Source: Trypanosoma brucei (Eukaryota). Taken from it: a stretch of 64,000 bases of DNA. The stretch lies in NCBI GenBank assembly GCA_000002445.1, contig CP000067.1, forward strand, positions 640,001 to 704,000, read 5' to 3'. Numbering within the stretch: position 1 is the stretch's first letter; each line of letters begins with the position of its first letter. The notes beneath the pieces were generated by a model that saw nothing but the letters and a program-made list of their open reading frames with translations, searched no databases and was not told the origin of the DNA. Made by a program: the position numbers and the translations under genes. Shown here one piece after another: positions 1 to 34,572 of this stretch.

Positions 1-3000
1 GTGACGGTTTACTTCGCCCAGTCCATTTGCTACTCGACGAAGGGAATGAAACAGTGATATCTGTTACCCCTTTTTTGAAGGAAGGTTCGTGCGCTCGTCT
101 TGCCGGAAAGCTTGAAGAGGATCGGTTACTGTCTATACTGCGTGATGTTGCAAGTGCTCTCCGTCTTCTTCATTCGCACAATATATACCACTGTAACCTG
201 AAGTTGGAAAACGTTCTTTTGAGGGAGGATGGGAAAGCCTGCCTTGCCGACGCAGCGTTGTGGCGTATCTTCTCTACACAGAGCCGTGATTGCCTTCTCT
301 TTAATGGTGAACTCGCGTGCATGCCTCCCGAGATGTTCATGATTGATGAAGCTGACAACCAGTCGAAGGACGCGAGCAAAGTAGACATTTGGGGGTTTGG
401 GCTGTTCATGTACCGTCTGGCGTACGGGCGGGAGCCGTTTGACATTGAAGGAAAGGCACTTGAACAAGTCTGTGAACTAGTTTCTGTTGATAGGCTCCAG
501 TTTCCTCAACGCAACTGGAGCATCGCGAGTTCGCTTGAGGATGCCATCCGTGTTTGTCTTGACGATGATCCGGAACGTCGACCAACAGTTCCGGGGTTGT
601 TTAGCTTCTCATTGTTTCGGAACCACAATTTTAATTCTGTTGTGGCTGGAGGAAGTGTCGGGTTACCGGGATTCAGGGCGTCGCATAATGATACTGGACC
701 AAGTGGTGGGCGCTCTGGCTCGGATAACTACATTAGGTGGGCATACCCAAGGTATCATTGGCGGAAGAACGTGTCACTCGACGAAATGCTCGGGTCTGGA
801 GGCATCTGTGAAACATATCGGGTGCACCTGCGGCGGCATCCATCTAAGCAGTTCGTGATGAAGGTGCTAAAACGGTCAGTACTGAAGGCTGCCTCACAAT
901 ACAGAATCAGCACAGACGATCTGCGTCACGCACTAGCTGTTTCGCGACTTATTAACCATCCTAACGTATTAAACCTGCTGGAGATTGTGGACTCGAGGGA
1001 CGGGTGCTTTGCTTCGCAGCAGTTGGCTAAAAGCAGGTTTCTTTACGCGGAGTTTCCCCCGTTGCTGAATCACAAAAACCCTCTCTTCACACTGAAACAG
1101 ATGCTCGCCGATGTCCTCCAGGGGCTTTTCGTGCTTCACCTAAATGGTGTGCCGCATCTCCGTCTGACACCATCAAACATTTTTTATGAGCTGGGCGTTG
1201 GTTTTAGGGTTTCGGACTTTGGTCCTTTGTTCCTTGCACGGGAGGAAATTGTCGAAAGTATGGAAACAGACCAACCACTGTATAGTGTACCACAGTGGGT
1301 GGTTGACGATTTAAAGGTGCCGATCCACATGTCGAGATTCAGTCTTGACGTTTTCTGTGTTGGTTTACTGGCCGCTTCAGCACTCCCTTCAGTTCTGCAT
1401 GAAGACTGGTACCGATTTTCTAATTCAGAGGGGTGTATTCTTGATGTGAAGGGGGTTTGTGAGAAGGTAAAGAATGCCTCCCTTTATCTTAAGCCGATGC
1501 TCGTGGACTTTATCCTCCAAGCGCTAACTAACCCCGCAACAACTGTGAGGGACTTGATGAATCATTCATATTTGAGCGACGCGATCGACGTCAGCAGGCT
1601 CGACGAGATGAAACCGCTGAACATATCGCCTGCTGATATGGAGATGGCCGTGTCAGAGAGGTTTACCACCACTGACGAATCTGGACTATGGAATGTTCTC
1701 GGTCACGACCCAGCGGCAGGGAATGGCCACTTGTGGTGCTCAATGTTCCGCAACGAAGCACTGCCCGACGGCTGCATACGGTCTGGCATTCAATCTGTTA
1801 ATGAAGTTGCGGCTGCAAGGCGGGTTCCTTTTGTTAAGAAACTCGTTTGCGGGCTGTGCCGGTGTGAATTACCCATAGTTTTATTTCTATGCGATAAGTG
1901 TGACGATTACATACGCTGCGCCAAGTGTTCGTTAGTGGATACACACGCCGACGACCACAAACTCAGCCCACACCTTGTCCACACCGTCGGGCAGGATGGG
2001 GTTGATGGCAACTTTTTTGCTTTATTGGTGCCAACATGCAATATATGTGTCGCGCAGTCACTGGAAGCCCTAGAAATGCAGGCCAACCTGCCACACGGAA
2101 CGCTGACGAAAGATATCACCACCCAATCAGTTACTGCGGAGCGAGCCCTACGGCGGCTAACACTTGCGAAGTTGAATCCAGGCCCCAAGGTACTTCCCAA
2201 AGTCTCGGATACTGAAGGTGAGACTTGGGAGGAGGAAGTTGCAAGCTGCCGCGAGACTCGAAACACTGAGCTGTTGTTGCATCAATTTGAACTGAACACT
2301 GTACCGAAGGAGCTGTTTGACCCGCCGCTGCTTCACGTGGCGAGTATTGACCTTAGTTACAACAAGTTAACCAGCCTTCCCGACGATCTGGCCCTTCTTT
2401 GCAACTTGAGAAGTGTTTCCGTTGCGCATAATGCTCTGACTGTTCTACCAGACAGCATGGGTGAACTCCGTCAACTAGATCGTTTAGACGCGAGCCACAA
2501 TAAACTAAAGGACCTGCCGTTAACATTTGTCAAACTACGCAAGTTGAGCACTGTCACCTTAGACTTCAATGAATTTTCGGGGTTGCCTCGCGTTTTGGAC
2601 GATCTCATTGTTGCCACCGCATCGACACCGCAGCTTTCCACCATTTATTTAGCGGAGAACACCAACATAACAAGGTTCCCCGATTACACGAACCTTGCAA
2701 TCTTACCCACGCTTAAGTTGGCCTTAGACAACGAACCCAGTGTTTATCAAACGTATCTCAATGAAAACCTTGCAGAAAAGCTACCCAACATTGGCATGCT
2801 TTGGAATAAAATATATCCAGATCGAATCGTTGATAACGTGTTTTGTGGGAGCTTGCGCACCACTCAATCACAGGTGGTGTACGATAAACTTGGCATAAAA
2901 AACCTCTTGACAGTGGGAAGGGACCTCGTTCCCGTCCCTCCGGTTGGTGGAAAACATCTCGTTATCTCATTAGATGATATTGAGGAGGCGGATATCCGTT

Positions 3001-3299
3001 GTACATTTGATGAGGCTGTCAACTTCATTGATATGAGTGTGGAAAAAGGTGAAGGGTGTTTGGTCCACTGCTTCGCCGGACTCTCGCGTTCCGCCACGAC
3101 AGTAATAGCATACTTCATGATGAAGAGAGGCATGAGACTTGGCGATGCGTACCAGCTAACGAAAAGGGGCCGACCTTCTATTTACCCCAATGAGGGTTTC
3201 TTTAGACAAATGATTGAACTGGATGGTGAGTTGTTCCCCGATGACCCGCCACTGCAACTGGAGGACATTGGAAGAGAAAGTCCCAATGTAAGGGTGTAG
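1..3299 (+). CDS. Multidomain 'kinatase': two tandem pseudokinase-like domains, a B-box/ZZ-like Cys/His zinc finger, leucine-rich repeats and a C-terminal dual-specificity phosphatase domain. The 5' end is truncated by the window edge; the frame is open from position 3 and the first in-window ATG is at 27.
   Basis: The first kinase-like domain has a degenerate catalytic loop HCNLKLEN (expected HRDLKxxN) and DFG replaced by DAA (LADAAL). The second kinase-like domain has HLRLTPSN and VSDFG. The zinc finger is CGLCRCELPIVLFLCDKCDDYIRCAKCSLVDTHADDH. LRR units follow (LxxLPDDLALLCNLRSVSVAHNALTVLP...). The DSP signature VHCFAGLSRSATTVIAYFM is an intact HCxxGxxRS. The ORF is 1090 codons in the + frame. 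Confidence 0.8.
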   Translation, partial: DGLLRPVHLLLDEGNETVISVTPFLKEGSCARLAGKLEEDRLLSILRDVASALRLLHSHNIYHCNLKLENVLLREDGKACLADAALWRIFSTQSRDCLLFNGELACMPPEMFMIDEADNQSKDASKVDIWGFGLFMYRLAYGREPFDIEGKALEQVCELVSVDRLQFPQRNWSIASSLEDAIRVCLDDDPERRPTVPGLFSFSLFRNHNFNSVVAGGSVGLPGFRASHNDTGPSGGRSGSDNYIRWAYPRYHWRKNVSLDEMLGSGGICETYRVHLRRHPSKQFVMKVLKRSVLKAASQYRISTDDLRHALAVSRLINHPNVLNLLEIVDSRDGCFASQQLAKSRFLYAEFPPLLNHKNPLFTLKQMLADVLQGLFVLHLNGVPHLRLTPSNIFYELGVGFRVSDFGPLFLAREEIVESMETDQPLYSVPQWVVDDLKVPIHMSRFSLDVFCVGLLAASALPSVLHEDWYRFSNSEGCILDVKGVCEKVKNASLYLKPMLVDFILQALTNPATTVRDLMNHSYLSDAIDVSRLDEMKPLNISPADMEMAVSERFTTTDESGLWNVLGHDPAAGNGHLWCSMFRNEALPDGCIRSGIQSVNEVAAARRVPFVKKLVCGLCRCELPIVLFLCDKCDDYIRCAKCSLVDTHADDHKLSPHLVHTVGQDGVDGNFFALLVPTCNICVAQSLEALEMQANLPHGTLTKDITTQSVTAERALRRLTLAKLNPGPKVLPKVSDTEGETWEEEVASCRETRNTELLLHQFELNTVPKELFDPPLLHVASIDLSYNKLTSLPDDLALLCNLRSVSVAHNALTVLPDSMGELRQLDRLDASHNKLKDLPLTFVKLRKLSTVTLDFNEFSGLPRVLDDLIVATASTPQLSTIYLAENTNITRFPDYTNLAILPTLKLALDNEPSVYQTYLNENLAEKLPNIGMLWNKIYPDRIVDNVFCGSLRTTQSQVVYDKLGIKNLLTVGRDLVPVPPVGGKHLVISLDDIEEADIRCTFDEAVNFIDMSVEKGEGCLVHCFAGLSRSATTVIAYFMMKRGMRLGDAYQLTKRGRPSIYPNEGFFRQMIELDGELFPDDPPLQLEDIGRESPNVRV

Positions 3300-3356: not shown

Positions 3357-3378
3357 ATATATATATATATATATATAT
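3357..3378. repeat. (AT)11 microsatellite.
   Basis: Direct read of atatatatatatatatatatat. Confidence 0.95.

Positions 3379-3985: not shown

Positions 3986-4020
<35 letters not shown>
3953..4020. repeat. Compound microsatellite (CA)n-(TA)n-(GT)16.
   Basis: The sequence reads acacacacacaca ... tatatatatatat ... gtgtgtgtgtgtgtgtgtgtgtgtgtgtgtgt directly. Confidence 0.95.
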
Positions 4021-5705: not shown

Positions 5706-5739
<34 letters not shown>

Positions 5740-5763
5740 TTATTTATTTATTTATTTATTTAT
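5706..5763. repeat. Compound microsatellite (TA)15-(TTTA)7.
   Basis: Direct read: atatatat... followed by tttatttatttatttatttatttattta. Confidence 0.95.
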
Positions 5764-6240
5764 ATACATACATAGATGTATGTGCGTACTGATGTGCTTC
5801 TGTATTTATTCATCTGTTGTGTGAATTGGTGAATACTGCAGTGTTTCCCTCTTTTTTTTTCTTCATCCCTTGAATCCTTTTTCATATCGTGTTCGACAAG
5901 GAAGTGTGTGGAAAGTAGTCAACAGGGCGTTGTTTCAACGTGCAAGATCTTGTGCTACAGCGAGTTCTCTATGACGCAGTTGCTGCCATTGTAGTAACGT
6001 CGGCTGGTGTATGCCGTTGTTTACTTATTTTATTGTTGTTTCTTCTTCACTCTATCATGTTTGTTTTATTACTTTTCCCCCCCATTTCCACAATCGAGAT
6101 TTCCTCCCTGATATCTCCTTTTCACACTGTTATCGCCCATTTCTGTCTCCCACATGAAACCTTCTACACTTTCGCTACCACTTGTCTCTTAACTTCCATT
6201 TGAAAAACAAGAAGGCCTCTCGCACTTACTTATCCATTAA

Positions 6241-6306: not shown

Positions 6307-9300
6307 TTGGCGCGCTGCATGGAGCTACTCAACGTGTTACCGCATGAGGCCGCTCTCCATAGGTTGATGCGCGCAGGTGTGTGCAACGATGACCAAATGC
6401 ATGATTATTTCATATCGCAAGCGTTTCGTGGCATCGCATATGCTGTAAACCGCGCCACACTTCCTGCACCCGTTTTTGTACAGCAACCATTCCTGTCAGG
6501 CAGTTCAAACACAACTGGAAGCTCGGGTGGCACCAACGACTCGCCCACACTGAATCCCTGTGCTGCAGGGAGTACAACCGCTACAACTACTGGCGCAGTG
6601 TGCGTGCTGTGCCGAATGTGTGTTCAAGCTGTGACATCTCACATGTCGCACCGGACAGCGGCGTATCTCGCAACGCGGCTCTTGGCTGATGAGGCAACAG
6701 CTTTCGGTGAAGGTAATGAGCGACCATGTTGTACAGTGGCATGGGTTGAAGCACTGTGCTCGGTGGGCAAAGCATCTTTTTTACAGAAGCAGTTAGGCGT
6801 TAACAGACGCATGGCACTGGGCTATTTGTACATTCTTGCGGAAACGGTGCGTGCGACTGCGCGAGGCCGTGTCATTGGTAAACGACTCAGTAGTCATTTT
6901 GTGGAGTTCGCCCACCGGATATTGGATGATGTCATACCGTACTTAGCGATCATGGCAGATGCCCGAGAGGTATTTGCGGTGACGCGGCACGTGCCGGTTG
7001 CAGGCAACCCATCGGAGGGTAATATTCCAACAGAAACAACGTCAACGGCGGCAGTTGTACCGAGGCCTGCGTGGCATCCCCCATCAAGGTTGACTGTCGA
7101 GGCCAACAACACGATTATACACCTGTTTCATGATATCGCGCATGACATCATCGACGTGCACCACAGGAGCGGGAAGAATCCAGGGGAACGTTGCCTAGTT
7201 CTTGACCGTGACATGCCAAGCAGGATGTGGCCAGCGGTGTCTATACTCCAAAGTGCACTTCATCGTGCATTAGATTGGATTTTACAGGAGGGGTTGGCTT
7301 GTGTTCGCACCATGGCACTGGCAACAGAGCACAGGGAAGAGAAAGCCGCAATAGAGGCGGTACAGACTGTCAAGAAGGCGCTGGACGACACGTTCGCGCA
7401 GATGTTTGAGAGGCAGGAAACACTGGAATGCTCGCGGCAAGCCGTAGAGAGGCAGTACGGGAAGGGTGCGAAGGATTATCATGGAATCACGGACACATTG
7501 TGGGCAAATACGCTGCGGCTGTGTCTCCTCTGCAGGAATGTCACTGGTGCGTGGATAGAAGTGTATGGCGGTGCAGGTTACACTGAAACGCGATCCACGG
7601 ACAAAAACGTCCTCAGTTTCATCGCCTCGTTCGTGTCTTCGGTACCACTAATGGACGGAGATGAAACGGAATCAAGTGTCTTCCTTGCCACTATTGCACT
7701 TTTGTCGGCAGCACTCGCAGCTGTTGTTGCGGCCCCTGTTCCTTTTATGCAGGTCTCCCTGTGGGTATCCGACACCGCGTTGACGGGTCAGGTGCACAAT
7801 GTCGTTATTCAGCGTGGACTTCGATACAAGGATGAGCTCGTGCAGAGGTTGAGTGCGCTCATCTCACAATTAATACTTTCTGGTTCATCGCTATCCGGGG
7901 CCTCTCGTGCCATTGTTGAATCCTCCGATCAGTTACTCGAGCTCATTTCAAACGGCAGGGATGCGGCTTCGCACTGCGTTATTCGTATGCTTTCGCGCGC
8001 AATACTTGAGCGTCCCCATAGCATGCTTCCAGCGCTCTTTCGTCTTCTGCAGCACGGCGATGTGAAGACACGGCGCAATGTTTTGGATGTCCTTTCTGCG
8101 CTACCGCAAATGGACGATGAAGCCGGCCTCGGTGAGAAACTGGTCGCGGAGCAAATGCGACCGATGTTGCGACAGCTCTCAGAGGAACTACTACTACGTA
8201 TCCAGGATGAAGAACTACTTGTGCGACTACAGGGTTCCAAGCTTTTCGCGAAGGTGTGGCCGGAAGATGTAATCCGACCGCTGCTGAATCTTGCCACACA
8301 GAAGGACAAGTCGCACAAGAAGCAATCAGCTGCTCAACAGGCGCTACGCTCTGTCGTAGCGGCACACACAGGAGACAGCCGTGTTGTGCTGCTTCTGCTT
8401 GACGAATCGTTGAAGCTCGTGGGAGAGACCACACCGACAGCCCCCACCGCTCCTAACACCCCGGCGGGTATGTTGGCTTTTGCGCAACTGCACTCTTGCG
8501 TGGGGGAAAGGGAAGGCGAGGGGGACGGTGCTGGGGGGCAACCAGGTTGTGCGGCTGCAACGGGCGGATTGACTACCATTAGTGCTGCTGGGGGTTTTTG
8601 CCAGCGGTTGATGGGGATTGCTCTCTCCTTAGTGAAACGGTGGGCGGAAGAGGTGCCTTCGTGGTCCGAGCCAGTGCTCCAGCCCATCGTTGACCGTGTT
8701 GTGAGTGCGCGCAGTCCAAAAGAGCAGGAGTTCGCAGTCCGATTCATTGCGCAGGTCTCATCCTTGTGTGGAATAACGGTGGAGGGGGCAGCTGCACTTA
8801 CGTCGTGCGTCCTGCGGGTTGTACAAGGGGGTAAGACAGGATCATTGCCGTCTGAGCGATGGCTAACTGGATTGTGTGGATCACGCCAAAGTAACAATTC
8901 AAACGAGAAAAGAGATGAAATTGCGTTAGTGGAAGAATGCTGTCCAGTTGACAGCGAATATCGGATGATTGCGCCACTTCTCTGTCTTAGGGGCTGCCCG
9001 AGACGACCATTTTTGTCTTGTCGTGTGGACAGTATGCCTCCCTCTATGCTGAATCTTTGGGAATTCATTTGGTTTGTCTTATTCTCATCGGACTACTGCG
9101 AGCAGCTTACGCCCGACACGCAGCGCTTGCTGCTGGAACTCGTCTGCAAGTACAGAACATCAATGGTGCTTGAGCGTTTTGCTCACTTTGAGCGAATGCA
9201 TTTGGAAAAGAATGGAGACAAGGAGCGTAAAAGCTGTGAAGGAAATAGTGCATATTTGATTTGTGCGGACAAACAAGCTTGTTTCTTGTTCCGTGCGGGG

Positions 9301-10353
9301 TTCTTCTGCACAGGTACTCTTGTTGCGCAAAGCAGTCTAGCGTTTACCAAACCGGCCACCAAAGATGGCGAGTCTCAGCTGGGAGTTGAGACTGCGACTA
9401 CTTCGTCCCCAGAAGGCAGTTGCGAAGAAGCAATGGAGCTACTTGATCTGGTTCATGCTGCAGAGTTGGTGTCTCGCTGGACTGAGTCTGTTGTGTTCCC
9501 CTGGCTCCTTGGTGACAATGATGACGAAACCACGTGTAGCAGGAACCCCCCTAGTGATCTGCAGCGCCTAAGTCGCTCCGCTATTGATTGTATCGCGCTC
9601 CTTACAGTTGTTGCACTAAACCGCGCGGAATTCGACGCTCATGTCTCGCGTCTCGTCAGGAACCCTCTGAGTGAACTGGCTCTCTTGTACAGAGAAGAGG
9701 TGAAGCAATCGAAGAAAGATGTTGGTGCTGAGAGGAAGGAAGCCTTTGCATTGGAGAAATGTGGTGATCTGCTAGGGCGGTTCGAGTTTGCGGTTCAAGT
9801 TCACAGCCGCGTTCTCAACATCTTGCGTGCGAGTCAAATGGGAAGAGGAAACGTTTGCACCTGGTTCATTGCGTTTATGCCGCATCTCATTGAGCTTGCT
9901 AACGCGGCCTGTGGGGTTGCTGCGCGCCTTGGTAGGAATGATGTTGGTCAGGTAGCGGTTGAGTGCTGTAACGTGTTATTTTTAGCCGCTATGTCGTCCA
10001 GTGGCGGCCCGCCGGCGGTGGAAGGGGAGCGGCGAGCAACGAGCGGTGAAAGCGATACCAAACCTCTTCTGATGGACCTTTGCACTTCTGATCGGAGCGC
10101 ATTGCTTGCCTTTGCGGTCGGCAGTTCGCGGTATTCGAGTCTACCGGCGGTGCAGTCAGAAGGTGTTAAGCTCCTCTCCGCATTGTTGGGTGCAGCGCCC
10201 GATATATTCGTAGACACGGCTGCGGGTAAAGGGACGGCGTTGGATGAAGCCTTCAGTGCCCTGAGTTCCGTTGCGCTCCTTCATGAAGACTGCAAGACGC
10301 GATCACTTGCAGAGGCAGTTATCAGCACCATTCAAAAGACTGAGCAAATATGA
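6307..10353 (+). CDS. Large conserved hypothetical protein of 1348 aa, possibly an alpha-helical repeat protein. I recognised no catalytic motif.
   Basis: Uninterrupted 4 kb + strand ORF with complex, non-repetitive composition. A polypyrimidine tract and AG lie upstream at 6241-6288. It sits in the same orientation as all neighbouring genes. Confidence 0.6.
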   Translation: MARCMELLNVLPHEAALHRLMRAGVCNDDQMHDYFISQAFRGIAYAVNRATLPAPVFVQQPFLSGSSNTTGSSGGTNDSPTLNPCAAGSTTATTTGAVCVLCRMCVQAVTSHMSHRTAAYLATRLLADEATAFGEGNERPCCTVAWVEALCSVGKASFLQKQLGVNRRMALGYLYILAETVRATARGRVIGKRLSSHFVEFAHRILDDVIPYLAIMADAREVFAVTRHVPVAGNPSEGNIPTETTSTAAVVPRPAWHPPSRLTVEANNTIIHLFHDIAHDIIDVHHRSGKNPGERCLVLDRDMPSRMWPAVSILQSALHRALDWILQEGLACVRTMALATEHREEKAAIEAVQTVKKALDDTFAQMFERQETLECSRQAVERQYGKGAKDYHGITDTLWANTLRLCLLCRNVTGAWIEVYGGAGYTETRSTDKNVLSFIASFVSSVPLMDGDETESSVFLATIALLSAALAAVVAAPVPFMQVSLWVSDTALTGQVHNVVIQRGLRYKDELVQRLSALISQLILSGSSLSGASRAIVESSDQLLELISNGRDAASHCVIRMLSRAILERPHSMLPALFRLLQHGDVKTRRNVLDVLSALPQMDDEAGLGEKLVAEQMRPMLRQLSEELLLRIQDEELLVRLQGSKLFAKVWPEDVIRPLLNLATQKDKSHKKQSAAQQALRSVVAAHTGDSRVVLLLLDESLKLVGETTPTAPTAPNTPAGMLAFAQLHSCVGEREGEGDGAGGQPGCAAATGGLTTISAAGGFCQRLMGIALSLVKRWAEEVPSWSEPVLQPIVDRVVSARSPKEQEFAVRFIAQVSSLCGITVEGAAALTSCVLRVVQGGKTGSLPSERWLTGLCGSRQSNNSNEKRDEIALVEECCPVDSEYRMIAPLLCLRGCPRRPFLSCRVDSMPPSMLNLWEFIWFVLFSSDYCEQLTPDTQRLLLELVCKYRTSMVLERFAHFERMHLEKNGDKERKSCEGNSAYLICADKQACFLFRAGFFCTGTLVAQSSLAFTKPATKDGESQLGVETATTSSPEGSCEEAMELLDLVHAAELVSRWTESVVFPWLLGDNDDETTCSRNPPSDLQRLSRSAIDCIALLTVVALNRAEFDAHVSRLVRNPLSELALLYREEVKQSKKDVGAERKEAFALEKCGDLLGRFEFAVQVHSRVLNILRASQMGRGNVCTWFIAFMPHLIELANAACGVAARLGRNDVGQVAVECCNVLFLAAMSSSGGPPAVEGERRATSGESDTKPLLMDLCTSDRSALLAFAVGSSRYSSLPAVQSEGVKLLSALLGAAPDIFVDTAAGKGTALDEAFSALSSVALLHEDCKTRSLAEAVISTIQKTEQI

Positions 10354-10625: not shown

Positions 10626-12173
10626 GTGATCATCTCAAAAATAGGATACGGTAACACCCATTACCCTCTGATGCAACGAGTTCTCCCCTTCGCTCTACAC
10701 TGCTATTTTAACCTAGGTTCTGCAATGCGCGATTGGCATGCGCTAGCGCCAAGCGCAGCGATCCATCTGCCCATGACGTTGTGCGGTGGACAGTGCTTTC
10801 GCTGGCGCCGGACACCGCGTGGGACATGGGTGGGGGTCGTTCGGCATACCGCCTATGAACTGTGCGATCCACTTAAAATGAGCATTGCGAAGCCCGAGCA
10901 GAAGAAGGCGAGAAAGACTGCTTCATTCCTTTCTCCTTTGTCCCTTGCGGCGACTGCTGCTCCACCTTTTATATCTTCTGCCGATGTTTCGGCGACTGGG
11001 CAGCCTTCCGCTGATCTCCTTTGGTTCCGCTGTCTCAACTGTGACCTACGCAGCGAATCGGATGCTCGTGAGCAGACGCTCTTTCTTCGCCACTACTTAG
11101 CACTTGATGTTGATTTGCAAAAGATGTGGCTGCGGTGGACAGCAGACAACCCGATGAAGTCTCATCCTCTGGTGAAGTGTCTTACCCCGTGCGGCTCAAC
11201 TGATCTCCCCGTGAGTATTCGCCATCTGCGACAGGATTTGCATGAGACCCTTCTTGGGTTCTTATGCTCACAGAATAACAACGTTCCACGCATCACGAGT
11301 CTGATGGAACGCCTCTCCATCTCCTATGGTGATTATTTGTGCGATTATAATGTAGTGACAGGTGATGTGCGCCACGCGGCTCACTGTGGAAACGTAAAGG
11401 GGAACCCTTCGGAGCAAAACGATGGTGGAGGCTGGATAGCTTTGCATGCTCTTCCTTCCATGGACCAGTTGGCGGCAGCCACGGAGGAGAGCCTGCGCGC
11501 TCTGGGTTTTGGCTATCGCAGCAGATACTTAACCGAATGTGCGGCAATCATCAGTAAGAGCGGTGCTACCAGGGTTCAAAAGGAAGTTAAAGATAAGAAA
11601 ATGAAGAAAAAGGAGGTGGGCAAGCCAGCTGGCCCACTCGCCGCCGTGCAACCGTACAAATGGTATGAGGAACTTGCCAGCAACCGACTTACCCTTCAAG
11701 AGCGAAGGGAAAAACTTTTAGCCTTGCCGGGTGTTGGGCGAAAGGTTGCGGACTGTATTTTATTATTTGCCCTAGGTCACCACGAACTTGTTCCTGTGGA
11801 CACACATATGGCGCAAGTTGCGGCTGAGTATCTAGCCTGTCCACCAGCGGTTGTGGTAGCTGCGAAAAAGCAACGTGAAAGCGAAGCCTCGGAGAGGCTC
11901 AAACGGAGACGAGGAAGTAACCATGAAGAACTTGCAAATGCTGTGGATAGCGGGGACTCGGTACTGTCATCTCTGTCATGGGAAAATACCCTAGTGGAAT
12001 GGTATAGGAATGGCAGAGGCAAAAAAGCGAAGTTTCCTGCTTTACTGCTGAAACACCATGACGCAATACAGTACGGGTTTAAGCTACTCTTCGGTGATTA
12101 TTGTGGTTGGGCGCACAGCATATTATTTTACGCCCGCATGAGATCATCTGGGAACAAGGAAGCAACAGCATGA
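10626..12173 (+). CDS. OGG1: 8-oxoguanine DNA glycosylase (OGG1, HhH-GPD superfamily). The true start may be the internal ATG at 10725 or 10671.
   Basis: The N-terminal block LCGGQCFRWRRTPRGTWVGVV resembles OGG1 'SGQSFRW...W.GV'. The HhH-GPD motif ALPGVGRKVADCILLFALGHHELVPVDTHM retains the catalytic Lys (GVGRK) and Asp (VPVDTH). There is a Lys-rich insertion, KEVKDKKMKKKEV. Confidence 0.8.
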   Translation: MIISKIGYGNTHYPLMQRVLPFALHCYFNLGSAMRDWHALAPSAAIHLPMTLCGGQCFRWRRTPRGTWVGVVRHTAYELCDPLKMSIAKPEQKKARKTASFLSPLSLAATAAPPFISSADVSATGQPSADLLWFRCLNCDLRSESDAREQTLFLRHYLALDVDLQKMWLRWTADNPMKSHPLVKCLTPCGSTDLPVSIRHLRQDLHETLLGFLCSQNNNVPRITSLMERLSISYGDYLCDYNVVTGDVRHAAHCGNVKGNPSEQNDGGGWIALHALPSMDQLAAATEESLRALGFGYRSRYLTECAAIISKSGATRVQKEVKDKKMKKKEVGKPAGPLAAVQPYKWYEELASNRLTLQERREKLLALPGVGRKVADCILLFALGHHELVPVDTHMAQVAAEYLACPPAVVVAAKKQRESEASERLKRRRGSNHEELANAVDSGDSVLSSLSWENTLVEWYRNGRGKKAKFPALLLKHHDAIQYGFKLLFGDYCGWAHSILFYARMRSSGNKEATA

Positions 12174-12952: not shown

Positions 12953-14305
12953 ATGAGCAACAATGTGGAGTTGTTGCGGTTCGTGGCACTTTCTGCCGCT
13001 GTGCATGCCGATGCGGTTCAGTGTCTAGCCGACGATACCCGCCGCGTTTTATCTCAAATGGCAGTGGACAGTGACCAGCTAGAGGCGCTGGAGGCTCAAC
13101 TTACCGACCTCCTGCAGAAGCAGCGCCGTCTCCATACATTGCGAGATGCGGTAACTAAAGCAAGGCAGGAACGAAGTGAGGAAAGTGGTAGCGGATGCAA
13201 AAGCAGCGGCAGCCGCGCTCCCAAGTCCACTGCGCCGGTTATTCCCCCCACCTCCGCGGGCAATGTCGACCGCAACATAAAATGCATCCTACAATTTGCG
13301 TCTAGGGCCGTGGAAAAAGATGAGATACAGCCGATTGGCACCCGTCGCAGCAAGAGAGTAACAGTTACTCCCACTTCTTTCCTTCCGAAAATTCCACATG
13401 AGGAACGGACGGAAACCACTTGTGATAGCACCGATGGGGGAAGGGAAGAAAAAGAGGACACTGAGTGCACGATAGACGAAGAAGTGGAGCGCCTGAAGAT
13501 GGAGATTAGGCACGCAGAAGCCATGTCAGTAGGAAAGAAGCTGCGTGACCTGGAGGCACTGAAGCAGCAGGTGAAAGAAGTTGATGCTAACTCCCTTGTC
13601 CAGCGGTACGTAGGGTCGTTTAGTTTCCCCATGGAGGTGGAAGAGTTGTGGCGTGGTAATAATGTACTGAATTGTACAAACATCGACACTTTTGTTTCCG
13701 GTGCCTGCAAGCGGTTTGCAGGGCGTTACGATGATGCTCTGCGTGCGATTAGTGATTTCCCACTGTCGGAGGCAAGCGATGCGGCGCGTGTGTATGGCTC
13801 AACGTTGTACGCCGAAGAGCTCACTTCGTCGAGCAATTACGACGCTGTTGGTGTTCAAGTGCTCGAACGGAGTGGCGAGTCGACGCTCCCACAGTTCTAC
13901 AGAAGGAAACGGCGCTTGGCACGAGTGAGCGCTCCTTTTAGACGCAGGGCTGTGGGTACGGTGCTCGGACCCGAGGAGTTCACTTTTCTTCCGACTGATT
14001 GGCCAGCAACTCAACTGATTTTACCACCAGCTGAGGGACATCTGCCCCCTGCAAAGCATATCATGACGCCCCGCTTCTCGTTTGCCAGTACGGATGAATT
14101 GAAAGCACTCCAGAGCCTTCGTGTAGACATTCAGCGAAGCGCTGTGGCTGCCTTTATGGACGCGTCCAAAGCACTTGATGAACTAATGAATCCTACCACA
14201 TTACAACGTGATGGAATCGACTATAAGGCAACGCTCATTCGGCTACTAGAAGCGGAGCGGAAGGGAAGCAGTAGGGTGTGGACCACACTTGCGCGTGAAG
14301 GTTGA
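12953..14305 (+). CDS. Hypothetical protein of 450 aa with a predicted coiled-coil segment.
   Basis: Long + strand ORF. It has heptad-like charged stretches (LEALEAQLTDLLQKQRRLHTLRDAVTKARQER; VERLKMEIRHAEAMSVGKKLRDLEALKQQVKEV). I saw no enzymatic motif. Confidence 0.5.
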   Translation: MSNNVELLRFVALSAAVHADAVQCLADDTRRVLSQMAVDSDQLEALEAQLTDLLQKQRRLHTLRDAVTKARQERSEESGSGCKSSGSRAPKSTAPVIPPTSAGNVDRNIKCILQFASRAVEKDEIQPIGTRRSKRVTVTPTSFLPKIPHEERTETTCDSTDGGREEKEDTECTIDEEVERLKMEIRHAEAMSVGKKLRDLEALKQQVKEVDANSLVQRYVGSFSFPMEVEELWRGNNVLNCTNIDTFVSGACKRFAGRYDDALRAISDFPLSEASDAARVYGSTLYAEELTSSSNYDAVGVQVLERSGESTLPQFYRRKRRLARVSAPFRRRAVGTVLGPEEFTFLPTDWPATQLILPPAEGHLPPAKHIMTPRFSFASTDELKALQSLRVDIQRSAVAAFMDASKALDELMNPTTLQRDGIDYKATLIRLLEAERKGSSRVWTTLAREG

Positions 14306-15876: not shown

Positions 15877-18800
15877 ATGCCGGATGCCTATGTTTTTGCT
15901 GCGTCATTGCTTTGTTGCCTGTGGGCCCTTACGGGTTCAGGAGTGCGGGGAGGTGACACAGAAGCCACTATCCGGAGCCAACCATCAGGGGCTGAAAACA
16001 ACATCTTGCCACTTGCAGTCACTCCACCGAGTGGTCTGCTCCTTCTTCTACAAATGGACGGTAACATCACAGCACGATGGTTGGATTCGGGATCCCACAT
16101 GTGGACTGTGAATACTGGTGGAAACATAATATCGGTAGACGTGTTGCGGCACGCGACAAGGGAGGTGATCCGGCGTGATCCGTTTGCGCTTCCGTTTATA
16201 ATTGAGGGAGGGATGCTTTTCACGCGACGGCGCTACCCAGCTAGTGATGCCGGGAAGCAATTAACCACTAGATATACTAAAGATGGTACCTTTGATGATG
16301 GCGACGACTATGAAGACGATTATATAGATGACGCGCCGCTCACTCCATCGCACCCGCAGTTTTTCATGAATCTCTCTACGCTTATTCGCCGTCGGCACGT
16401 GAATGTAGAAAATACAGAAATCTATGTCACAACGTCCGTACAGCTCATGGACTACGATAGCCACACTGGGATTCCGATTATGAGACCAACGCCACTAACT
16501 TCCTTTTTACACGTGGTACTTTGCAACGTCACCATTCATGTGGTGCGGCGCGGCATGTATAAGTGGAAGATGAGTATAGCACAATACAAACTTTCGGAGA
16601 GTTTTCCACCGCAAGGCCCGGAAAGTGATGAAGGAGGTGAAAAAGATCAGAACTTTATTGCGAACGTTGTAGAGGAGCAGAGTCAAAACAGTGTCCGCCA
16701 AGCCATACTTGCGATGCAGGCTCGTTTGAGAGATGCAGCGATGCCTTTTGACTTTAAACGCAAGACGTTTAACGTCGATGACCTTGTGATGCGTGAAGTA
16801 GGAAACCAACGGTATACGCTGTGGAATACGCTAACTAACGTTGCCGAGTGGCCTGCGGCAGTTGGAACGACAAGTAGCATTGTGAATGCCTTCTTCTGGC
16901 ATCCCGGTCGCGGTGGTGTTTATCCTATCCCCCTTTACCGCTTCCACAGGCCACCAACAGCTGATGCCTTCACGCACGCAGGTAGATTACAAAGGAACGG
17001 ATTCCCTCTTCTCAGTGATCGGCCGTGGACGCACCGTACCGTGCGTTTAAAACCGTACGTGGCAACGTGGGAAGACGATATAGACGCAGACGAGCGTGAA
17101 ACGGAGGAACTCCAGCGTTCTTTTCAACAGTGCTCGTGGCTTCAGGAGTGTTCGGCCAACTCTCGCCAAATGGTGGCCTATTCTTTCAGGGAGGGTATGG
17201 TGGGGAACGAGTCTATTCCAATACTGTCCCTTTCGTACATACTGTTGAACACTATGACGCGACGGACGATGTTCTTTGCATTCCAAACGGTCTGTATTCT
17301 CGTCTCCGCAACCCTCGTTGGCTTTGGTATGTTGCTGCGGCCACGTTTAAGGAATGCGTGGGCGCAGTATGACTCACTTATGGATAACATGCGTCAGACT
17401 TCCAAAACCACGCCGACTGGTTTTGCAGCCGCCGATCGTTCCGGTCGTTTCGATACTCCTGCTGGTGGGAGCCCCGCAGCCGTGTTCGTTGAGTCGTCAC
17501 CATTTTCGCTAACAATGACAGCGGCGCCACTTGATGATGGGGTTGAACAAATCGTACGAATGGGGAAACCACAAGTGACTGACAGCGTGAATGAAACTTC
17601 TGCAGGTCTCGGTGACACGTGGTGGAAAAATCCAAACGACTACGATGATGATGATGAGTACGTTGCCGGTGAATCCTCACTGAGCGTAAGGGGAAGCGTG
17701 TCCGCCACGCAACCTGTCACCACACCCATGCCACAACTCTTTCAGCAGCATTTTGATGTTTTGAAAAAGATCGGCCGAGGCGGTGAAGGGAATGTCTTTT
17801 GTGTAAAGCACCAGGTTACGGGAGCTATGTACGCCATCAAAGCCGTTCGTATTCGTGAGGAAGACAAGCAAAGGTGTGTTCGCGAGGCCATTCTTCACAG
17901 CTCTCTTGACAATCCGAACGTTGTGCGGTACTTTTACTCATGGATTGAGAACATTGCTCGAAGCATCGCTGAAGCCCACGGTATCGTCAATAATGACAAT
18001 GTGGAGGGTTCGGTGTCGTTCTGTGGAGACGAAAGCTACGGCACCATAAACGACACGGTGTCATCGGCAACGGGCGCCCCTCTTAATGTGCTGTTCATAC
18101 AAATGGAGTACTTTAAGAGTGGCACATTGGCAGATCACTTCCGCAACCGTAATGCCTTCAGCCGACTAGAAAATGTGGAGCATCTCCTCCAGATAGTCAG
18201 AGGTCTACGGTACATTCACCAGCAGGATGTAATACACCGTGACCTGAAGCCAACGAATATATTTGTCTCTGACGCTGGCATAATGAAGATTGGTGATTTT
18301 GGACTGGCAAAGCGTTGGCAGACGCCATTGGGATGGAAGAGGGCCAGCGTGGAAGAGTTTGGTTCTGCCACAGCGCTCTTCGATGATGAACGTTCCTTCG
18401 CCGGTGGGACACCGCTTTACTGGAGTCCCGAGCAGCAGTGTGGGGGGAGTGCGACGGCAGCCAGTGATGTTTTTTCCCTTGGATTGATCGCTGTGGAATT
18501 TTATTGCGAGTTTACGACACAGCATGAACGACTGCGGACACTCGGTGATGCACGTCATGGTGAACTTCCCTCTGCGTTGGAGGACGACTTCCCTGAGGAA
18601 GCTGAGGTTTTCCGGCAAATGCTGGGAGAACAACCAGACGGCCGGCCATCGGTGGATGAAGTGGTCCAGAAGCTGAAGCATATTGTGGTGGAAATTCGCA
18701 GCGGTGGCAACGGTTCGGCAAAGTTGGGTGACAATGGAGCTACGGATGATGTTGGTGACGTGGAGTTGGCGATGCCTACAAGTTCTTCAGCGGATATGTT

Positions 18801-18903
18801 GAGCGTTAATAAAACCCCGGCCGACTCCATGAATATTGTTCCCTTGGGGAATGTCAGTTCAGTGGAGTCGTCTACGGCTGGGCGTTTGCCGTCAGCCAAC
18901 TGA
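15877..18903 (+). CDS. eIF2K2: Membrane-anchored eIF2-alpha kinase (PEK/GCN2 family) with an N-terminal signal peptide, a roughly 470 aa ectodomain, one transmembrane helix and a cytoplasmic kinase domain carrying a large insert. It resembles T. brucei eIF2K2.
   Basis: Signal-peptide-like N-terminus MPDAYVFAASLLCCLWALTGSG. Transmembrane helix MFFAFQTVCILVSATLVGFGMLL. Kinase motifs: GGEGNVFCV...YAIKAV (Gly-loop and VAIK), HRDLKPTNIF, KIGDFGLAK, GTPLYWSPEQ. There is a long insert between subdomains IV and VI, which is typical of eIF2-alpha kinases. Confidence 0.85.
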   Translation: MPDAYVFAASLLCCLWALTGSGVRGGDTEATIRSQPSGAENNILPLAVTPPSGLLLLLQMDGNITARWLDSGSHMWTVNTGGNIISVDVLRHATREVIRRDPFALPFIIEGGMLFTRRRYPASDAGKQLTTRYTKDGTFDDGDDYEDDYIDDAPLTPSHPQFFMNLSTLIRRRHVNVENTEIYVTTSVQLMDYDSHTGIPIMRPTPLTSFLHVVLCNVTIHVVRRGMYKWKMSIAQYKLSESFPPQGPESDEGGEKDQNFIANVVEEQSQNSVRQAILAMQARLRDAAMPFDFKRKTFNVDDLVMREVGNQRYTLWNTLTNVAEWPAAVGTTSSIVNAFFWHPGRGGVYPIPLYRFHRPPTADAFTHAGRLQRNGFPLLSDRPWTHRTVRLKPYVATWEDDIDADERETEELQRSFQQCSWLQECSANSRQMVAYSFREGMVGNESIPILSLSYILLNTMTRRTMFFAFQTVCILVSATLVGFGMLLRPRLRNAWAQYDSLMDNMRQTSKTTPTGFAAADRSGRFDTPAGGSPAAVFVESSPFSLTMTAAPLDDGVEQIVRMGKPQVTDSVNETSAGLGDTWWKNPNDYDDDDEYVAGESSLSVRGSVSATQPVTTPMPQLFQQHFDVLKKIGRGGEGNVFCVKHQVTGAMYAIKAVRIREEDKQRCVREAILHSSLDNPNVVRYFYSWIENIARSIAEAHGIVNNDNVEGSVSFCGDESYGTINDTVSSATGAPLNVLFIQMEYFKSGTLADHFRNRNAFSRLENVEHLLQIVRGLRYIHQQDVIHRDLKPTNIFVSDAGIMKIGDFGLAKRWQTPLGWKRASVEEFGSATALFDDERSFAGGTPLYWSPEQQCGGSATAASDVFSLGLIAVEFYCEFTTQHERLRTLGDARHGELPSALEDDFPEEAEVFRQMLGEQPDGRPSVDEVVQKLKHIVVEIRSGGNGSAKLGDNGATDDVGDVELAMPTSSSADMLSVNKTPADSMNIVPLGNVSSVESSTAGRLPSAN

Positions 18904-32604: not shown

Positions 32605-34572
32605 GTGAAGCAAACATTTCAACGGGGAGTAGGTGGAGAAAACTGGTGGGGGATGACCTTCAATGGAAGGTTTCGTGCGACGCTGCGCGGCATCAATATT
32701 AGAAATGCTTCAATGACTTCGTTGTCATTGACAGGAAGTCATGCACAAAAGCAGACGGTTTTAGGGAGCACTCCGGGGGCATTGGGCACAATACCGACAG
32801 TGGCCCTTAACGGAGTGAACCCACTGCCCCGTTACCGGCACAATCTGTTGTTTGGTACACTTTCATTTGGAGATCGCTGGGATCGTATTCAGCGTCGGTT
32901 GGCTGTTCTTGGGCGGGCGTCTACTGGAAATGTGGTAGTTCCGTTTAGTGACAGTGCTGACGCTTTCCGACGTATGTGGGAGTCTGTCGATTCTGCCAGT
33001 GATTCGGTCCTGTGGCAAACGTACATTTGCAAGGACGATTTCGTCGGGCAAAAAACGGTCAAGAAGTTAGAGGAAGCGCATCGTCGCGGGTGTAAAACAG
33101 AGTTGCTGTACGACTGCGGGGGAAACATAACTGGACGCAGGCGGCTGGTGGGTGACCTCAAAAAGTCTGGAGCTAACGTCATTGAACATCGTCCCATGTG
33201 GGAACATTTTTTCCCCTACTTCCTCAGGGGGATGAAGTGGGAGCTCAGTCCAGGTATACGTAACCACAGAAAAATCCTTATCGTCGACAACAAGTTGGGT
33301 TTCTGTGGTGGCCTCAATATTGGGGACGAGTACTGCGGTACGAGTGAGGGTGGAAATGGACGCTTTAGGGATACACATTGTGTCGTCATGGGTCCCGCCG
33401 TGATGCACATGCGCGAAGTATACGAAGATACAAAGGCGCCAAAGCCATGGAAATGGAGCTTAGCCCGGTGGCGACAGATTGCATCAGCGACAATGAACCT
33501 TCGGTACCTTGAGGGTATGAATGTGAAACATGACTACCTGGAGCCCACCACGACGTTTGTGCGCCAGGGCGGCGGTGTTTACCTCCGCCGCCAGATGGAG
33601 AGAGCGGAACGTAGCACAGTCCGTATGATGGAACGGATGCGATGGAAACGGCAGCGTGAGCGCCTGAATCGATGTCTGCTTACGCTCGCGAAAAACCTTC
33701 GCGAGGGGCAGGGGCTTGTATTCAAAGCCGCAACAGGTAAAGGCGATGACGTGGCAACCACGGATGCGGGAAGCAAGAGAAACAATGAGGTGTCTCATGG
33801 GCAATGGAAACTGATGAAGCGCCGCATCGACGAGTACCGCCAGCGTGCAATTAAAAACGCCGAGGAATCCTTTTTCCGTAGGTTGAGGGTGGTTAACCCA
33901 TCGATGCGCCTCCTTGAAGACACCTCACCCGTTGCGGAAGCTGAGGCATATGGTCAAGCGCATGCCGCTGTGACGCAGGTGCTCTCCTGTAATCCCCACT
34001 CACGTGACTGGTCCATTCCTTATGCCTTTTGGCAAGTGTCAAAGTTTGTTCACCAGAGATTGTGGGTTACCACTCCTTATTATATGCCTCACAGGAAGTT
34101 AATGCGTGCCCTTCAGTTGGCTGCTCGCCGTGGTGTCGATGTCCGCATCCTCGCAGGAAGCAACCGGACAACAGACCCATGGTTCATGTGGTATGCATCG
34201 AATTATATCACGGGTATGCTAATGGCATCGGGGGTTCGCGTCTACGAATATAAGGGAGGGCAGGTGATGCACGCTAAAACAGTGGTAGCGGACAGCATAT
34301 GGACCTCCATCGGGAGTTACAACTGGGACATGATGAGCAATAAGAATATGGAAATTTGTGTTTGCCACCTGGACCACAATTTGGCTCTAACTATGGAAAA
34401 GCAGTTTCTTGACGACATGAATGTGAGCGAGGAGGTGAACTATGAAGAATATCAACGGCGCTCCTTGTGGCTACGGTTCTCCTCGTGGTTTTTCTACACC
34501 GCTTTGCGGATCGCGGAGAAGTTCACGTTTCGAACCTTCTGGGATCCCGATCTCTCCTCCGAGATAGACTAG
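32605..34572 (+). CDS. CLS: Cardiolipin synthase of the bacterial/PLD type, with two HKD motifs.
   Basis: HKD motif 1 is [26 protein letters not shown] motif 2 is [23 protein letters not shown]. Both have the H-x-K-x4-D...G-S/G-x-N architecture of the PLD superfamily. The large size (655 aa) and position are consistent with T. brucei CLS, from memory. Confidence 0.85.

What the first reader, a model, noticed from the sequence alone, without database searches (positions are those of the whole stretch)
1..3299. Two tandem degenerate kinase domains fused to a B-box, LRRs and an apparently active dual-specificity phosphatase
The first kinase-like domain has lost the catalytic Asp (HCNLKLEN) and the DFG motif (DAA). 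The second keeps DFG but has HLRL in place of HRD. Both are therefore predicted pseudokinases. The C-terminal DSP domain keeps an intact HCxxGxxRS P-loop. The arrangement is an unusual signalling module peculiar to kinetoplastids, in which the pseudokinases may serve as docking or regulatory domains for the phosphatase. The gene is truncated at the 5' edge, so the N-lobe of the first kinase domain was not seen.
Basis: partly seen in the sequence, partly recalled or inferred. Interest (0 to 1): 0.5.

Follow-up and report, generated by a model that had tools for sequence, protein, structure and literature searches.

The report
Known trypanosome "kinatase" phosphatase gene
The first 3.3 kb of the window encode most of the Trypanosoma brucei "kinatase", a signalling phosphatase fused to two dead kinase domains that was described in 2007, so the finding is real but not new; its supposed B-box is a ZZ-type zinc finger.

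Summary
Window 3..3299 (+ strand) is an uninterrupted reading frame. It encodes the C-terminal 1098 residues of a 1286-aa Trypanosoma brucei-group protein, with one residue different from the database representative. Length, name and architecture match Tb927.4.2460, the T. brucei "kinatase" of Brenchley et al. 2007 (PMC2175518).

- Pseudokinase 1 has HCN in place of HRD and DAA in place of DFG.
- Pseudokinase 2 has HLRL in place of HRDL and keeps DFG.
- About seven SHOC2-like leucine-rich repeats follow.
- The MKP-like dual-specificity phosphatase domain has an intact HCFAGLSRS P-loop and a general-acid Asp.

These losses and retentions are conserved in 17 trypanosomatid orthologues. They also hold in bodonid-like metagenomic relatives, so the dead-kinase state is ancient.

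One correction: the Cys/His cluster is not a B-box. Its eight invariant ligands, profile matches, Pfam matches in orthologues and the predicted fold all point to a ZZ-type zinc finger. It lacks the acidic pocket of known N-terminus-binding ZZ domains. None of the three kinatase papers I searched or read excerpts of mentions a zinc finger.

Most likely function: a single-catalytic-centre phosphatase that is targeted and regulated by its non-catalytic modules, probably acting on MAPK-type kinases. Novelty: already known. Interest is low.

The parts
3..3299 (+). Coding sequence for the C-terminal 1098 codons plus the stop (3297-3299) of the T. brucei kinatase (Tb927.4.2460-type, 1286 aa). The 5' 564 nt lie upstream of the window.
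   Evidence: open frame. (100% rounded identity to P0001, one substitution H208Y, offset 188 aa). (Tb927.4.2460, Kinatase, 1286 aa).
3..620 (+). Pseudokinase domain 1: the end of the N-lobe plus the C-lobe (window aa 1-206). The catalytic loop is HCNLKLEN (nt 189-212, Asp replaced by Asn). The DFG position reads DAA (nt 249-257, Asp kept). The APE position reads PPE (within MPPE, nt 321-332).
   Evidence: Pfam Pkinase. Alignment to Aurora A. Orthologue conservation of H63, N65, K67, N70 and D83 in window numbering. AF2 pLDDT mostly 65-90.
621..767 (+). Predicted disordered linker (window aa 207-255).
   Evidence: pLDDT below 50. Poorly conserved and gapped in A1.
768..1667 (+). Pseudokinase domain 2 (window aa 256-555). 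The Gly loop is GSGGICE. The beta-3 Lys is in VMKV (nt 855-866). The catalytic loop is HLRLTPSN (from nt 1155), with both Asp and Lys lost. DFG is intact (nt 1215-1223). The alpha-C Glu is not conserved.
   Evidence: Pfam Pkinase 47.6 bits against a cut-off of 31.7. Alignment to CaMK1G. Invariant K287 and D405-F406-G407. pLDDT 70-95.
1668..1814 (+). Predicted disordered linker (window aa 556-604).
   Evidence: pLDDT below 50.
1815..2102 (+). ZZ-type zinc-finger module (window aa 605-700). The core runs from C616 to H652 (nt 1848-1958) with eight invariant ligands: C-x2-C-x10-C-x2-C-x5-C-x2-C-x5-H-x3-H. A conserved beta-hairpin and helix follow (LEALEMQANLP).
   Evidence: Invariant columns. Profile against PDB returns ZZ domains. 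Pfam ZZ hits 7 of 15 orthologue segments, best 27.2 bits against a cut-off of 21.4. AF2 model pLDDT 82.7 and Foldseek hits that are nearly all ZZ domains.
2235..2777 (+). About seven leucine-rich repeats of the 23-residue SHOC2/Ras-group type (window aa 745-925).
   Evidence: Pfam LRR_8, LRR_4 and LRR_1. Top PDB sequence hits are SHOC2, E 1e-42. Seven regularly spaced beta-strands in the model.
2802..3242 (+). Dual-specificity phosphatase catalytic domain (window aa 934-1080). The general-acid pair D991-D992 is at nt 2973-2978. The P-loop VHCFAGLSRS is at nt 3063-3092, followed by an AYFMM (AYLM-type) motif.
   Evidence: Pfam DSPc. Alignment to DUSP9 and DUSP7 puts D992 under the MKP general acid. 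Foldseek target TM 0.84-0.88 and rmsd 2.1-2.5 A to DUSP7, DUSP9, DUSP5 and DUSP10. Catalytic residues invariant in all relatives.

Best explanation
The region is the 3' 85% of the gene for the Trypanosoma brucei 'kinatase', an atypical MKP-like dual-specificity protein phosphatase.

Shown here:
- The protein is a chain of folded modules joined by disordered linkers: pseudokinase 1, pseudokinase 2, a ZZ-type zinc finger, about seven SHOC2-like LRRs, and a DSP domain.
- Only the DSP domain has a complete catalytic apparatus (Cys, Arg and general-acid Asp).
- Both kinase-like domains lack the catalytic Asp in every relative examined.

Inferred:
- The protein works as a phosphatase with one catalytic centre. 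Its specificity, localisation and activity are set by the non-catalytic modules.
- The LRRs and the ZZ finger recruit partners or substrates.
- The pseudokinases act as docking or allosteric modules. Pseudokinase 1 may still bind nucleotide, because it keeps the beta-3 Lys, an acidic residue at the apparent alpha-C position (my own placement from the orthologue alignment), the catalytic-loop Lys and Asn, and the DFG Asp.
- A conserved N-terminal Met-Gly(-x-Cys) outside the window may anchor the protein to membranes by acylation.
- The most likely substrates are the pThr/pTyr activation loops of MAPK-type kinases. In that case the extra modules replace the rhodanese/KIM docking domain of animal MKPs.
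For: Identity:
- 100% (rounded) match to a 1286-aa T. brucei-group protein annotated 'dual specificity protein phosphatase, putative'.
- Brenchley et al. list Tb927.4.2460 as the single T. brucei kinatase, at 1286 aa.

Architecture: Pfam and PDB sequence searches; AF2 domain and linker pattern.

Phosphatase competence:
- HCxxGxxRS, the DD general-acid position and the AYLM-type motif are invariant across 17 orthologues and in nearly all of the metagenomic relatives.
- The best sequence and fold matches are MKP catalytic domains.

Kinase inactivity: HxN plus DAG/DAA in the first domain and H-L-x-L-x-P-S-N in the second are conserved. This agrees with PMC2175518.

ZZ finger.

Functional link: the L. 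infantum orthologue appears essential, and changing its dosage alters cell cycle, morphology, stress tolerance and MAPK1/3/10 transcript levels (PMC13210143; orthology from one kinatase per species).
Against: - No biochemical data exist for the T. brucei protein. A search for Tb927.4.2460 in the paper library found nothing.
- The MAPK link in Leishmania is at transcript level only and is indirect.
- Similarity of the DSP domain to MKPs does not fix the substrate.
- Trypanosomatids lack a canonical Ras-Raf pathway (my own knowledge), so the SHOC2 analogy may not carry over.
- An Asp-to-Asn catalytic loop does not always abolish all phosphotransfer; HER3 is a known example (my own knowledge).
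- The inter-domain arrangement could not be assessed (pTM 0.38).
Confidence: 0.7

Rival explanations
1. Bifunctional enzyme. Pseudokinase 1 (HxN catalytic loop with Lys, Asn and the DFG Asp kept) retains weak or atypical kinase activity, so the protein both phosphorylates and dephosphorylates targets.
For: The beta-3 Lys (K162 in the full protein) is nearly invariant, and the catalytic-loop K255 and N258 and the Mg-binding D271 are invariant. An acidic residue sits at the apparent alpha-C position, which is my own placement. Some kinases with an Asn at this position keep low activity (my own knowledge, HER3).
Against: The catalytic base is absent in all 17 orthologues and all metagenomic relatives. 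The Gly loop is degenerate, with an insertion of about 25 residues before beta-3. DFG reads DAG or DAA. The 2007 analysis also classed both domains as inactive.
Confidence: 0.12
2. The DSP domain acts mainly on a non-protein or non-MAPK substrate such as a phosphoinositide, or the protein is chiefly a scaffold whose catalysis is dispensable.
For: Atypical DUSPs have very diverse substrates (my own knowledge). No substrate is known, and the classical MKP docking domain is absent (no rhodanese hit).
Against: The P-loop, general acid and AYLM motif are those of protein-directed MKP-type and atypical DUSPs, and the best fold matches are MKPs. Strict invariance of the catalytic residues argues that catalysis is under selection.
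Confidence: 0.13
3. The Cys/His cluster is a B-box.
For: B-box 1 and ZZ fingers are both cross-brace two-zinc modules with similar ligand spacing. Weak zf-B_box matches occur in 2 of 15 orthologue segments (best E 0.02), and PML B-box 1 appears at E 0.6 in the profile search.
Against: There is no Pfam B-box hit on the T. brucei segment. ZZ hits are stronger and more frequent: 7 of 15 segments, best 27.2 bits and above the cut-off. Two metagenomic relatives hit ZZ, one of them above the cut-off. Most of the profile-against-PDB hits and almost all of the top 50 Foldseek hits are ZZ domains, and none of the 50 listed fold hits is a B-box.
Confidence: 0.05

Closest known systems
Kinetoplastid 'kinatases' (Brenchley et al. 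2007, BMC Genomics 8:434): Tb927.4.2460, Tc00.1047053506559.190, LmjF34.2190
   Same: Same gene family, and by all evidence the same gene. It has a DSP domain, LRRs and two pseudokinase domains. The HRD Asp is substituted in both domains and DFG is substituted in the first. The length is 1286 aa and there is one copy per species.
   Different: Nothing differs in kind. This analysis adds a conserved ZZ-type zinc finger between pseudokinase 2 and the LRRs, which is not mentioned in the papers searched. It also adds a conserved N-terminal Met-Gly motif, and relatives in bodonid-like metagenomic contigs.
Animal MAP kinase phosphatases (DUSP6, 7, 9, 10 and others)
   Same: The catalytic domain matches in sequence (E 1e-19 to 1e-21) and in fold (target TM about 0.85), with the same P-loop, general acid and AYLM motif.
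   Different: There is no N-terminal rhodanese/CH2 domain with a kinase-interaction motif. Two pseudokinases, a ZZ finger and LRRs precede the catalytic domain instead.
SHOC2-MRAS-PP1C holophosphatase and PHLPP (LRR plus PP2C)
   Same: An LRR scaffold of the SHOC2 type is coupled to a protein phosphatase. This suggests that the LRRs present the substrate or partner.
   Different: Here the LRRs (about 7, against 20 in SHOC2) are fused covalently to a Cys-based DSP, not to a metallophosphatase. No Ras-type partner is known.
ZZ-type zinc fingers of p62/SQSTM1, p300/CBP, HERC2, dystrophin and dystrobrevin
   Same: The eight-ligand pattern and the predicted fold are the same. These ZZ domains make up most of the profile hits and almost all of the fold hits.
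   Different: The acidic residues that p62 uses to bind an N-terminal Arg are not conserved: D129 aligns with invariant Gly, D147 with a variable position and D149 with Ile/Val (residue roles from my own knowledge). An R-C-G-K-C motif is invariant or nearly so instead. The T. brucei copy itself scores below Pfam detection.
Pseudokinases with an Asn in place of the catalytic Asp (e.g. HER3) and the scaffold pseudokinase KSR
   Same: A kinase fold is retained with the catalytic residue lost, and a docking or allosteric role is presumed.
   Different: There is no orthology. Here two such domains sit in tandem on a phosphatase.

Membership tests
Kinatase subfamily of atypical DSPs (Brenchley 2007) | DSP catalytic domain with an intact HCx5R P-loop | tested here: met
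   DSPc E 1.2e-24; VHCFAGLSRS at nt 3063-3092.
Kinatase subfamily of atypical DSPs (Brenchley 2007) | Two kinase-like domains with the HRD Asp substituted, and DFG substituted in the first | tested here: met
   HCN plus DAA in the first domain; HLRL plus DFG in the second.
Kinatase subfamily of atypical DSPs (Brenchley 2007) | Leucine-rich repeats between the kinase-like domains and the DSP domain | tested here: met
   LRR_8 and LRR_4 hits; SHOC2 as top PDB match.
Kinatase subfamily of atypical DSPs (Brenchley 2007) | Identity with the listed T. brucei member Tb927.4.2460 (1286 aa) | tested here: met
   P0001 is 1286 aa, carries the same product name and is a 100% (rounded) match. The gene identifier itself is inferred from length, name and species group, because the tools give no locus tag.
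Classical MAP kinase phosphatase | N-terminal rhodanese/CH2 domain with a kinase-interaction motif | tested here: not met
   No rhodanese hit in any segment. This agrees with PMC2175518.
Classical MAP kinase phosphatase | MKP-type catalytic domain (general-acid Asp about 31 residues before the Cys, AYLM motif) | tested here: met
   D992 aligns with the DUSP9 and DUSP7 general acid; AYFMM motif present; fold target TM 0.84-0.88.
Catalytically active eukaryotic protein kinase | Catalytic Asp of HRD | tested here: not met
   Asn in domain 1. Arg in the T. brucei domain 2, variable in orthologues. Conserved across the family.
Catalytically active eukaryotic protein kinase | GxGxxG loop, beta-3 Lys, alpha-C Glu and DFG | tested here: inconclusive
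   The Lys is kept in both domains. The Gly loop is degenerate in domain 1 and partial in domain 2. At the alpha-C position, Asp/Glu is likely in domain 1 and lost in domain 2. DFG reads DAA in domain 1 and is intact in domain 2. Nucleotide binding cannot be tested here.
B-box zinc finger (PF00643) | Match to the B-box profile or fold | tested here: not met
   No hit on the window segment at E<=10. Only 2 of 15 orthologue segments match, best E 0.02. No B-box among the top 50 fold matches.
ZZ-type zinc finger (PF00569) | Eight ligands in the pattern C-x2-C...C-x2-C...C-x2-C...H-x3-H | tested here: met
   C616, C619, C630, C633, C639, C642, H648 and H652 are invariant in 17 sequences.
ZZ-type zinc finger (PF00569) | Match to the ZZ profile above the curated cut-off | tested here: inconclusive
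   The T. brucei copy gives no hit. The P0019 orthologue scores 27.2 bits and the metagenomic P0089 scores 23.1 bits, both above the 21.4 cut-off. Other orthologues score 12-20 bits. The family profile against PDB gives ZZ domains at E 0.006-0.03.
ZZ-type zinc finger (PF00569) | ZZ fold | tested here: met
   AF2 model pLDDT 82.7. Foldseek top hits are p62, p300, HERC2, CBP, BIG and ZZZ3 ZZ domains with probability up to 0.99. The E-values are weak (0.055 or higher) and TM is about 0.5, as expected for a 60-residue domain.
ZZ-type zinc finger (PF00569) | Binding of two zinc ions | not testable with these tools
   Requires metal analysis or an experimental structure.

The most novel reading that the evidence does not exclude
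The ZZ finger is an ancient, obligatory part of a kinetoplastid ZZ-LRR-DSP targeting module. It has a non-canonical pocket, basic rather than acidic, that reads a ligand class different from the N-termini bound by known ZZ domains. Together with a nucleotide-binding pseudokinase 1 acting as a switch, it determines which phosphoproteins the phosphatase reaches.
Probability: 0.25. Interest if true: 0.4.

Novelty: already known. Interest (0 to 1): 0.18.

Why it matters
The architecture was named and analysed in 2007, and its Leishmania orthologue has now been studied genetically. The finding therefore mainly re-discovers a known kinetoplastid-specific phosphatase.

Three points have practical value:
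- The domain map gains a ZZ zinc finger and a probable acylated N-terminus, neither of which is in the published Pfam-based schemes.
- The pseudokinase state predates trypanosomatid parasitism, because bodonid-like relatives share it.
- Those same relatives also carry the ZZ finger, so it too predates parasitism.

The protein is absent from the host and apparently essential in Leishmania, so these modules are reasonable handles for mechanistic or inhibitor work.

Tried and rejected
- Pfam on the isolated Cys-rich segment of the window gave only a spurious I-EGF_1 match. The domain became classifiable only through orthologue segments, a family profile and a structure model.
- A search of the paper library for Tb927.4.2460 found nothing.
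- To identify the organism behind the metagenomic contig L003, I first searched its CorA-like neighbour, which found only itself. The PDI-like neighbour then gave Bodo and Neobodo as the best named full-length hits, and a Leishmania gene adjacent to the kinatase.
- The afdb50 fold library was unavailable, so fold-level taxonomic breadth could not be examined.
- The bacterial promoter and terminator scan of the 3' flank is irrelevant for a trypanosome and was discarded.
- Foldseek of the whole model also listed MAP kinases among matches to the kinase-like domains. PLK1, KSR2, CIPK23 and SIK3 score alike, so I treat this as a generic kinase fold and not as MAPK mimicry.
- The whole-protein model has pTM 0.38, so no inter-domain packing is claimed.
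- The short minus-strand ORFs inside 1-3299 were taken to be chance ORFs opposite a conserved coding frame; they were not examined further.
Full report
**Observation**

Frame 3 of the + strand is open from the first base of the window to a stop at 3297-3299. Its 1098-residue product matches residues 189-1286 of P0001. P0001 is a 1286-aa protein from the Trypanosoma brucei group (T. equiperdum record) named 'dual specificity protein phosphatase, putative'. There is a single difference, H208Y.

All quoted motifs are at the stated places:
- HCNLKLEN, nt 189-212
- DAA, nt 249-257
- HLRL, nt 1155-1166
- DFG, nt 1215-1223
- VHCFAGLSRS, nt 3063-3092

**Domains**

Pfam finds the following:
- Pkinase, two stretches, whole-protein E 8e-35. 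Tested separately, the first domain (with its N-lobe added from P0001) gives E 3.8e-22 and the second (window fragment) gives E 1.9e-12.
- LRR_8, LRR_4 and LRR_1.
- DSPc, E 1.2e-24.

An AlphaFold2 model of the window protein was built on 17 orthologues (mean pLDDT 72.4, pTM 0.38). It shows four folded blocks separated by linkers with pLDDT below 50:

| Block | Window residues |
|---|---|
| Pseudokinase 1 | 1-206 |
| Pseudokinase 2 | 256-555 |
| Zinc-finger module | 605-700 |
| LRR plus DSP unit, with seven regularly spaced LRR strands | about 740-1091 |

**Kinase-like domains**

Alignment to Aurora A places HCN under HRD/HRN and DAA under DFG. Alignment to CaMK1G places H-L-R-L-T-P-S-N under H-R-D-L-K-P-E-N and DFG under DFG.

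Across 17 trypanosomatid orthologues (alignment A1):
- Domain 1 always reads H-x-N-L-K-x-x-N and D-A-[GA]. It keeps the beta-3 Lys and, as I read the alignment, an acidic residue at the alpha-C position. Its Gly loop is degenerate (GT[VI]GRS), and an insertion of about 25 residues precedes beta-3.
- Domain 2 keeps the beta-3 Lys and DFG. It has lost the catalytic Asp, the catalytic-loop Lys and the alpha-C Glu.

Both domains are therefore predicted pseudokinases. Domain 1 could plausibly still bind nucleotide; this is inference.

The upstream 188 residues, taken from P0001 and not present in the window, are the N-lobe of domain 1.

**Phosphatase domain**

The P-loop HCFAGLSRS, the Asp pair D991-D992 and the AYLM-type motif are conserved throughout. 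D992 aligns with the general acid of DUSP9 and DUSP7. The closest solved sequences are MKP catalytic domains such as MKP-4/DUSP9, DUSP7 and DUSP5, at E 6e-21 to 1e-17. In the model, the domain superposes on DUSP7, DUSP9, DUSP5 and DUSP10 with target TM 0.84-0.88 and rmsd 2.1-2.5 A. 'Apparently active' is a fair reading. No rhodanese/KIM domain is present.

**The 'B-box' is a ZZ finger**

- Eight ligands are invariant: C616, C619, C630, C633, C639, C642, H648 and H652. The pattern is C-x2-C-x10-C-x2-C-x5-C-x2-C-x5-H-x3-H.
- Pfam sees neither a B-box nor a ZZ domain in the T. brucei segment.
- Pfam ZZ matches 7 of 15 orthologue segments. The best is 27.2 bits against a cut-off of 21.4. zf-B_box matches 2 of 15, with a best E of 0.02.
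- A profile of the 15 segments retrieves ZZ domains from the PDB: dystrobrevin, p62, Nbr1-type, HERC2, MIB1, CBP/p300 and ZZZ3. The best E is 0.006.
- A 60-residue AF2 model (pLDDT 82.7) returns almost only ZZ domains in Foldseek. Probability reaches 0.99, E is 0.055 or higher and TM is about 0.5. None of the 50 listed hits is a B-box.
- The acidic residues that p62 uses to hold an N-terminal Arg (my own knowledge of that structure) align with an invariant Gly, a variable position and Ile/Val (alignment). An R-C-G-K-C motif is invariant or nearly so instead, so the ligand is probably different.
- The 2026 L. infantum kinatase paper has no occurrence of 'zinc'. The passages retrieved from the 2007 phosphatome paper and the 2010 review do not mention a zinc finger. 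The 2007 InterPro lists and the precomputed Pfam lists of the 19 full-length orthologues also lack a ZZ entry.

**What is already known**

Brenchley et al. 2007 (PMC2175518) defined 'kinatases' as a DSP domain plus two pseudokinase domains plus LRRs, with one gene per TriTryp species. They noted the SHOC2-like LRRs, the substituted HRD Asp in all kinase domains and the substituted DFG in the first. They proposed a scaffolding and regulatory role in MAPK-type signalling. Their table lists Tb927.4.2460 (1286 aa), Tc00.1047053506559.190 (1285 aa) and LmjF34.2190 (1382 aa).

A 2026 study of the L. infantum orthologue LINF_340027100 reports the following (PMC13210143):
- Null mutants could not be obtained.
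- Altered dosage changes morphology, cell cycle, peroxide and antimony tolerance, and intracellular growth.
- MAPK1/3/10 transcript levels change.

**Breadth of the family**

An exhaustive HMMER scan of 1.84 billion representatives finds the trypanosomatid orthologues, including Phytomonas. It also finds metagenomic proteins of 937-1419 aa that carry Pkinase, LRR and DSPc; two of them also match Pfam ZZ (P0089 above the cut-off, P0058 just below).

One such contig, L003, is gene-dense, intron-free and has its large genes on one strand. It carries two kinatase paralogues in tandem, downstream of a PDI-like thioredoxin gene. The best named full-length relatives of that neighbour are from Bodo saltans and Neobodo. 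The hit list also includes Leishmania martiniquensis LSCM1_02239, whose locus tag is consecutive with the L. martiniquensis kinatase LSCM1_02238. This suggests conserved synteny and a kinetoplastid origin.

In all these relatives the catalytic Asp of the kinase-like domains is missing, and the DSP P-loop is kept in almost unchanged form. Most keep the eight ZZ ligands, but one paralogue lineage (P0065, L003:10253-14311) has lost some. The pseudokinase state and the ZZ finger therefore predate the trypanosomatids. I found no full-architecture relative that could be assigned outside Kinetoplastea, but most metagenomic hits carry no taxonomy.

**Mechanism (inference)**

The protein is a phosphatase with one catalytic centre. 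Its MKP-like domain is positioned by an adjacent LRR solenoid and a ZZ finger. It is regulated or docked by two pseudokinases joined through flexible linkers. It may also be membrane-anchored through an N-terminal Met-Gly(-x-Cys) motif, which is conserved in all 14 complete N-termini. That motif lies outside the window.

MAPK-type kinases are the most likely substrates. The rivals are residual kinase activity of domain 1, a non-MAPK or non-protein substrate, and a pure scaffold role. They cannot be excluded without biochemistry.

**Verdict**

The feature is real and the reading is largely right, with one domain misnamed. The architecture and this gene are already in the literature. Novelty: already known. 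Interest: low.

Noticed in passing
Upstream of the window (P0001 residues 1-7; alignment A1 columns 1-10): All 14 orthologues with a complete N-terminus begin Met-Gly, mostly MG-x-C or MGVLC. This is a candidate N-myristoylation/palmitoylation signal. The 1382-aa L. major and L. infantum gene models used in the literature are about 199 aa shorter than the 1581-aa L. donovani model that starts with this motif, so they may be N-terminally truncated.
   Followed up: partly
L003:4808-9067 and L003:10253-14311 (also L004): A bodonid-like metagenomic contig carries two kinatase paralogues in tandem, downstream of CorA-like and PDI-like genes. The second paralogue (and P0065) has two kinase-like domains but a degenerate ZZ finger with ligands lost. 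The PDI-like neighbour's hit list includes a Leishmania gene whose locus tag is consecutive with the Leishmania kinatase, suggesting conserved synteny.
   Followed up: partly
window 1962-2102 (aa 654-700): A conserved beta-hairpin and helix lie directly after the ZZ core, with invariant E688, E691, A694, P697 and G699 (LEALEMQANLP). It has no Pfam match and unknown function.
   Followed up: no
window 3357-3378, 3989-4020, 5706-5774: Microsatellites lie in the AT-rich 3' flank/intergenic region (GC 0.37-0.42): (AT)11, (GT)16 and (ATAT)17.
   Followed up: no
window 6307-61742: All ORFs with a Pfam match lie on the + strand, as in a kinetoplastid polycistronic unit. They are an OGG1-type glycosylase (10626-12173), a protein kinase (15877-18903), an ABC transporter with two ABC_tran and two ABC_membrane stretches (21909-26420) and a PLD-like/cardiolipin-synthase-type protein (32605-34572). 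Large ORFs at 6307-10353, 12953-14305, 37618-40683 and 41468-43264 have no Pfam match at E<=1e-5.
   Followed up: partly
window 624-626 (aa 208): The single amino-acid difference from the T. equiperdum representative is His here against Tyr there. It lies in the disordered linker after pseudokinase 1.
   Followed up: no
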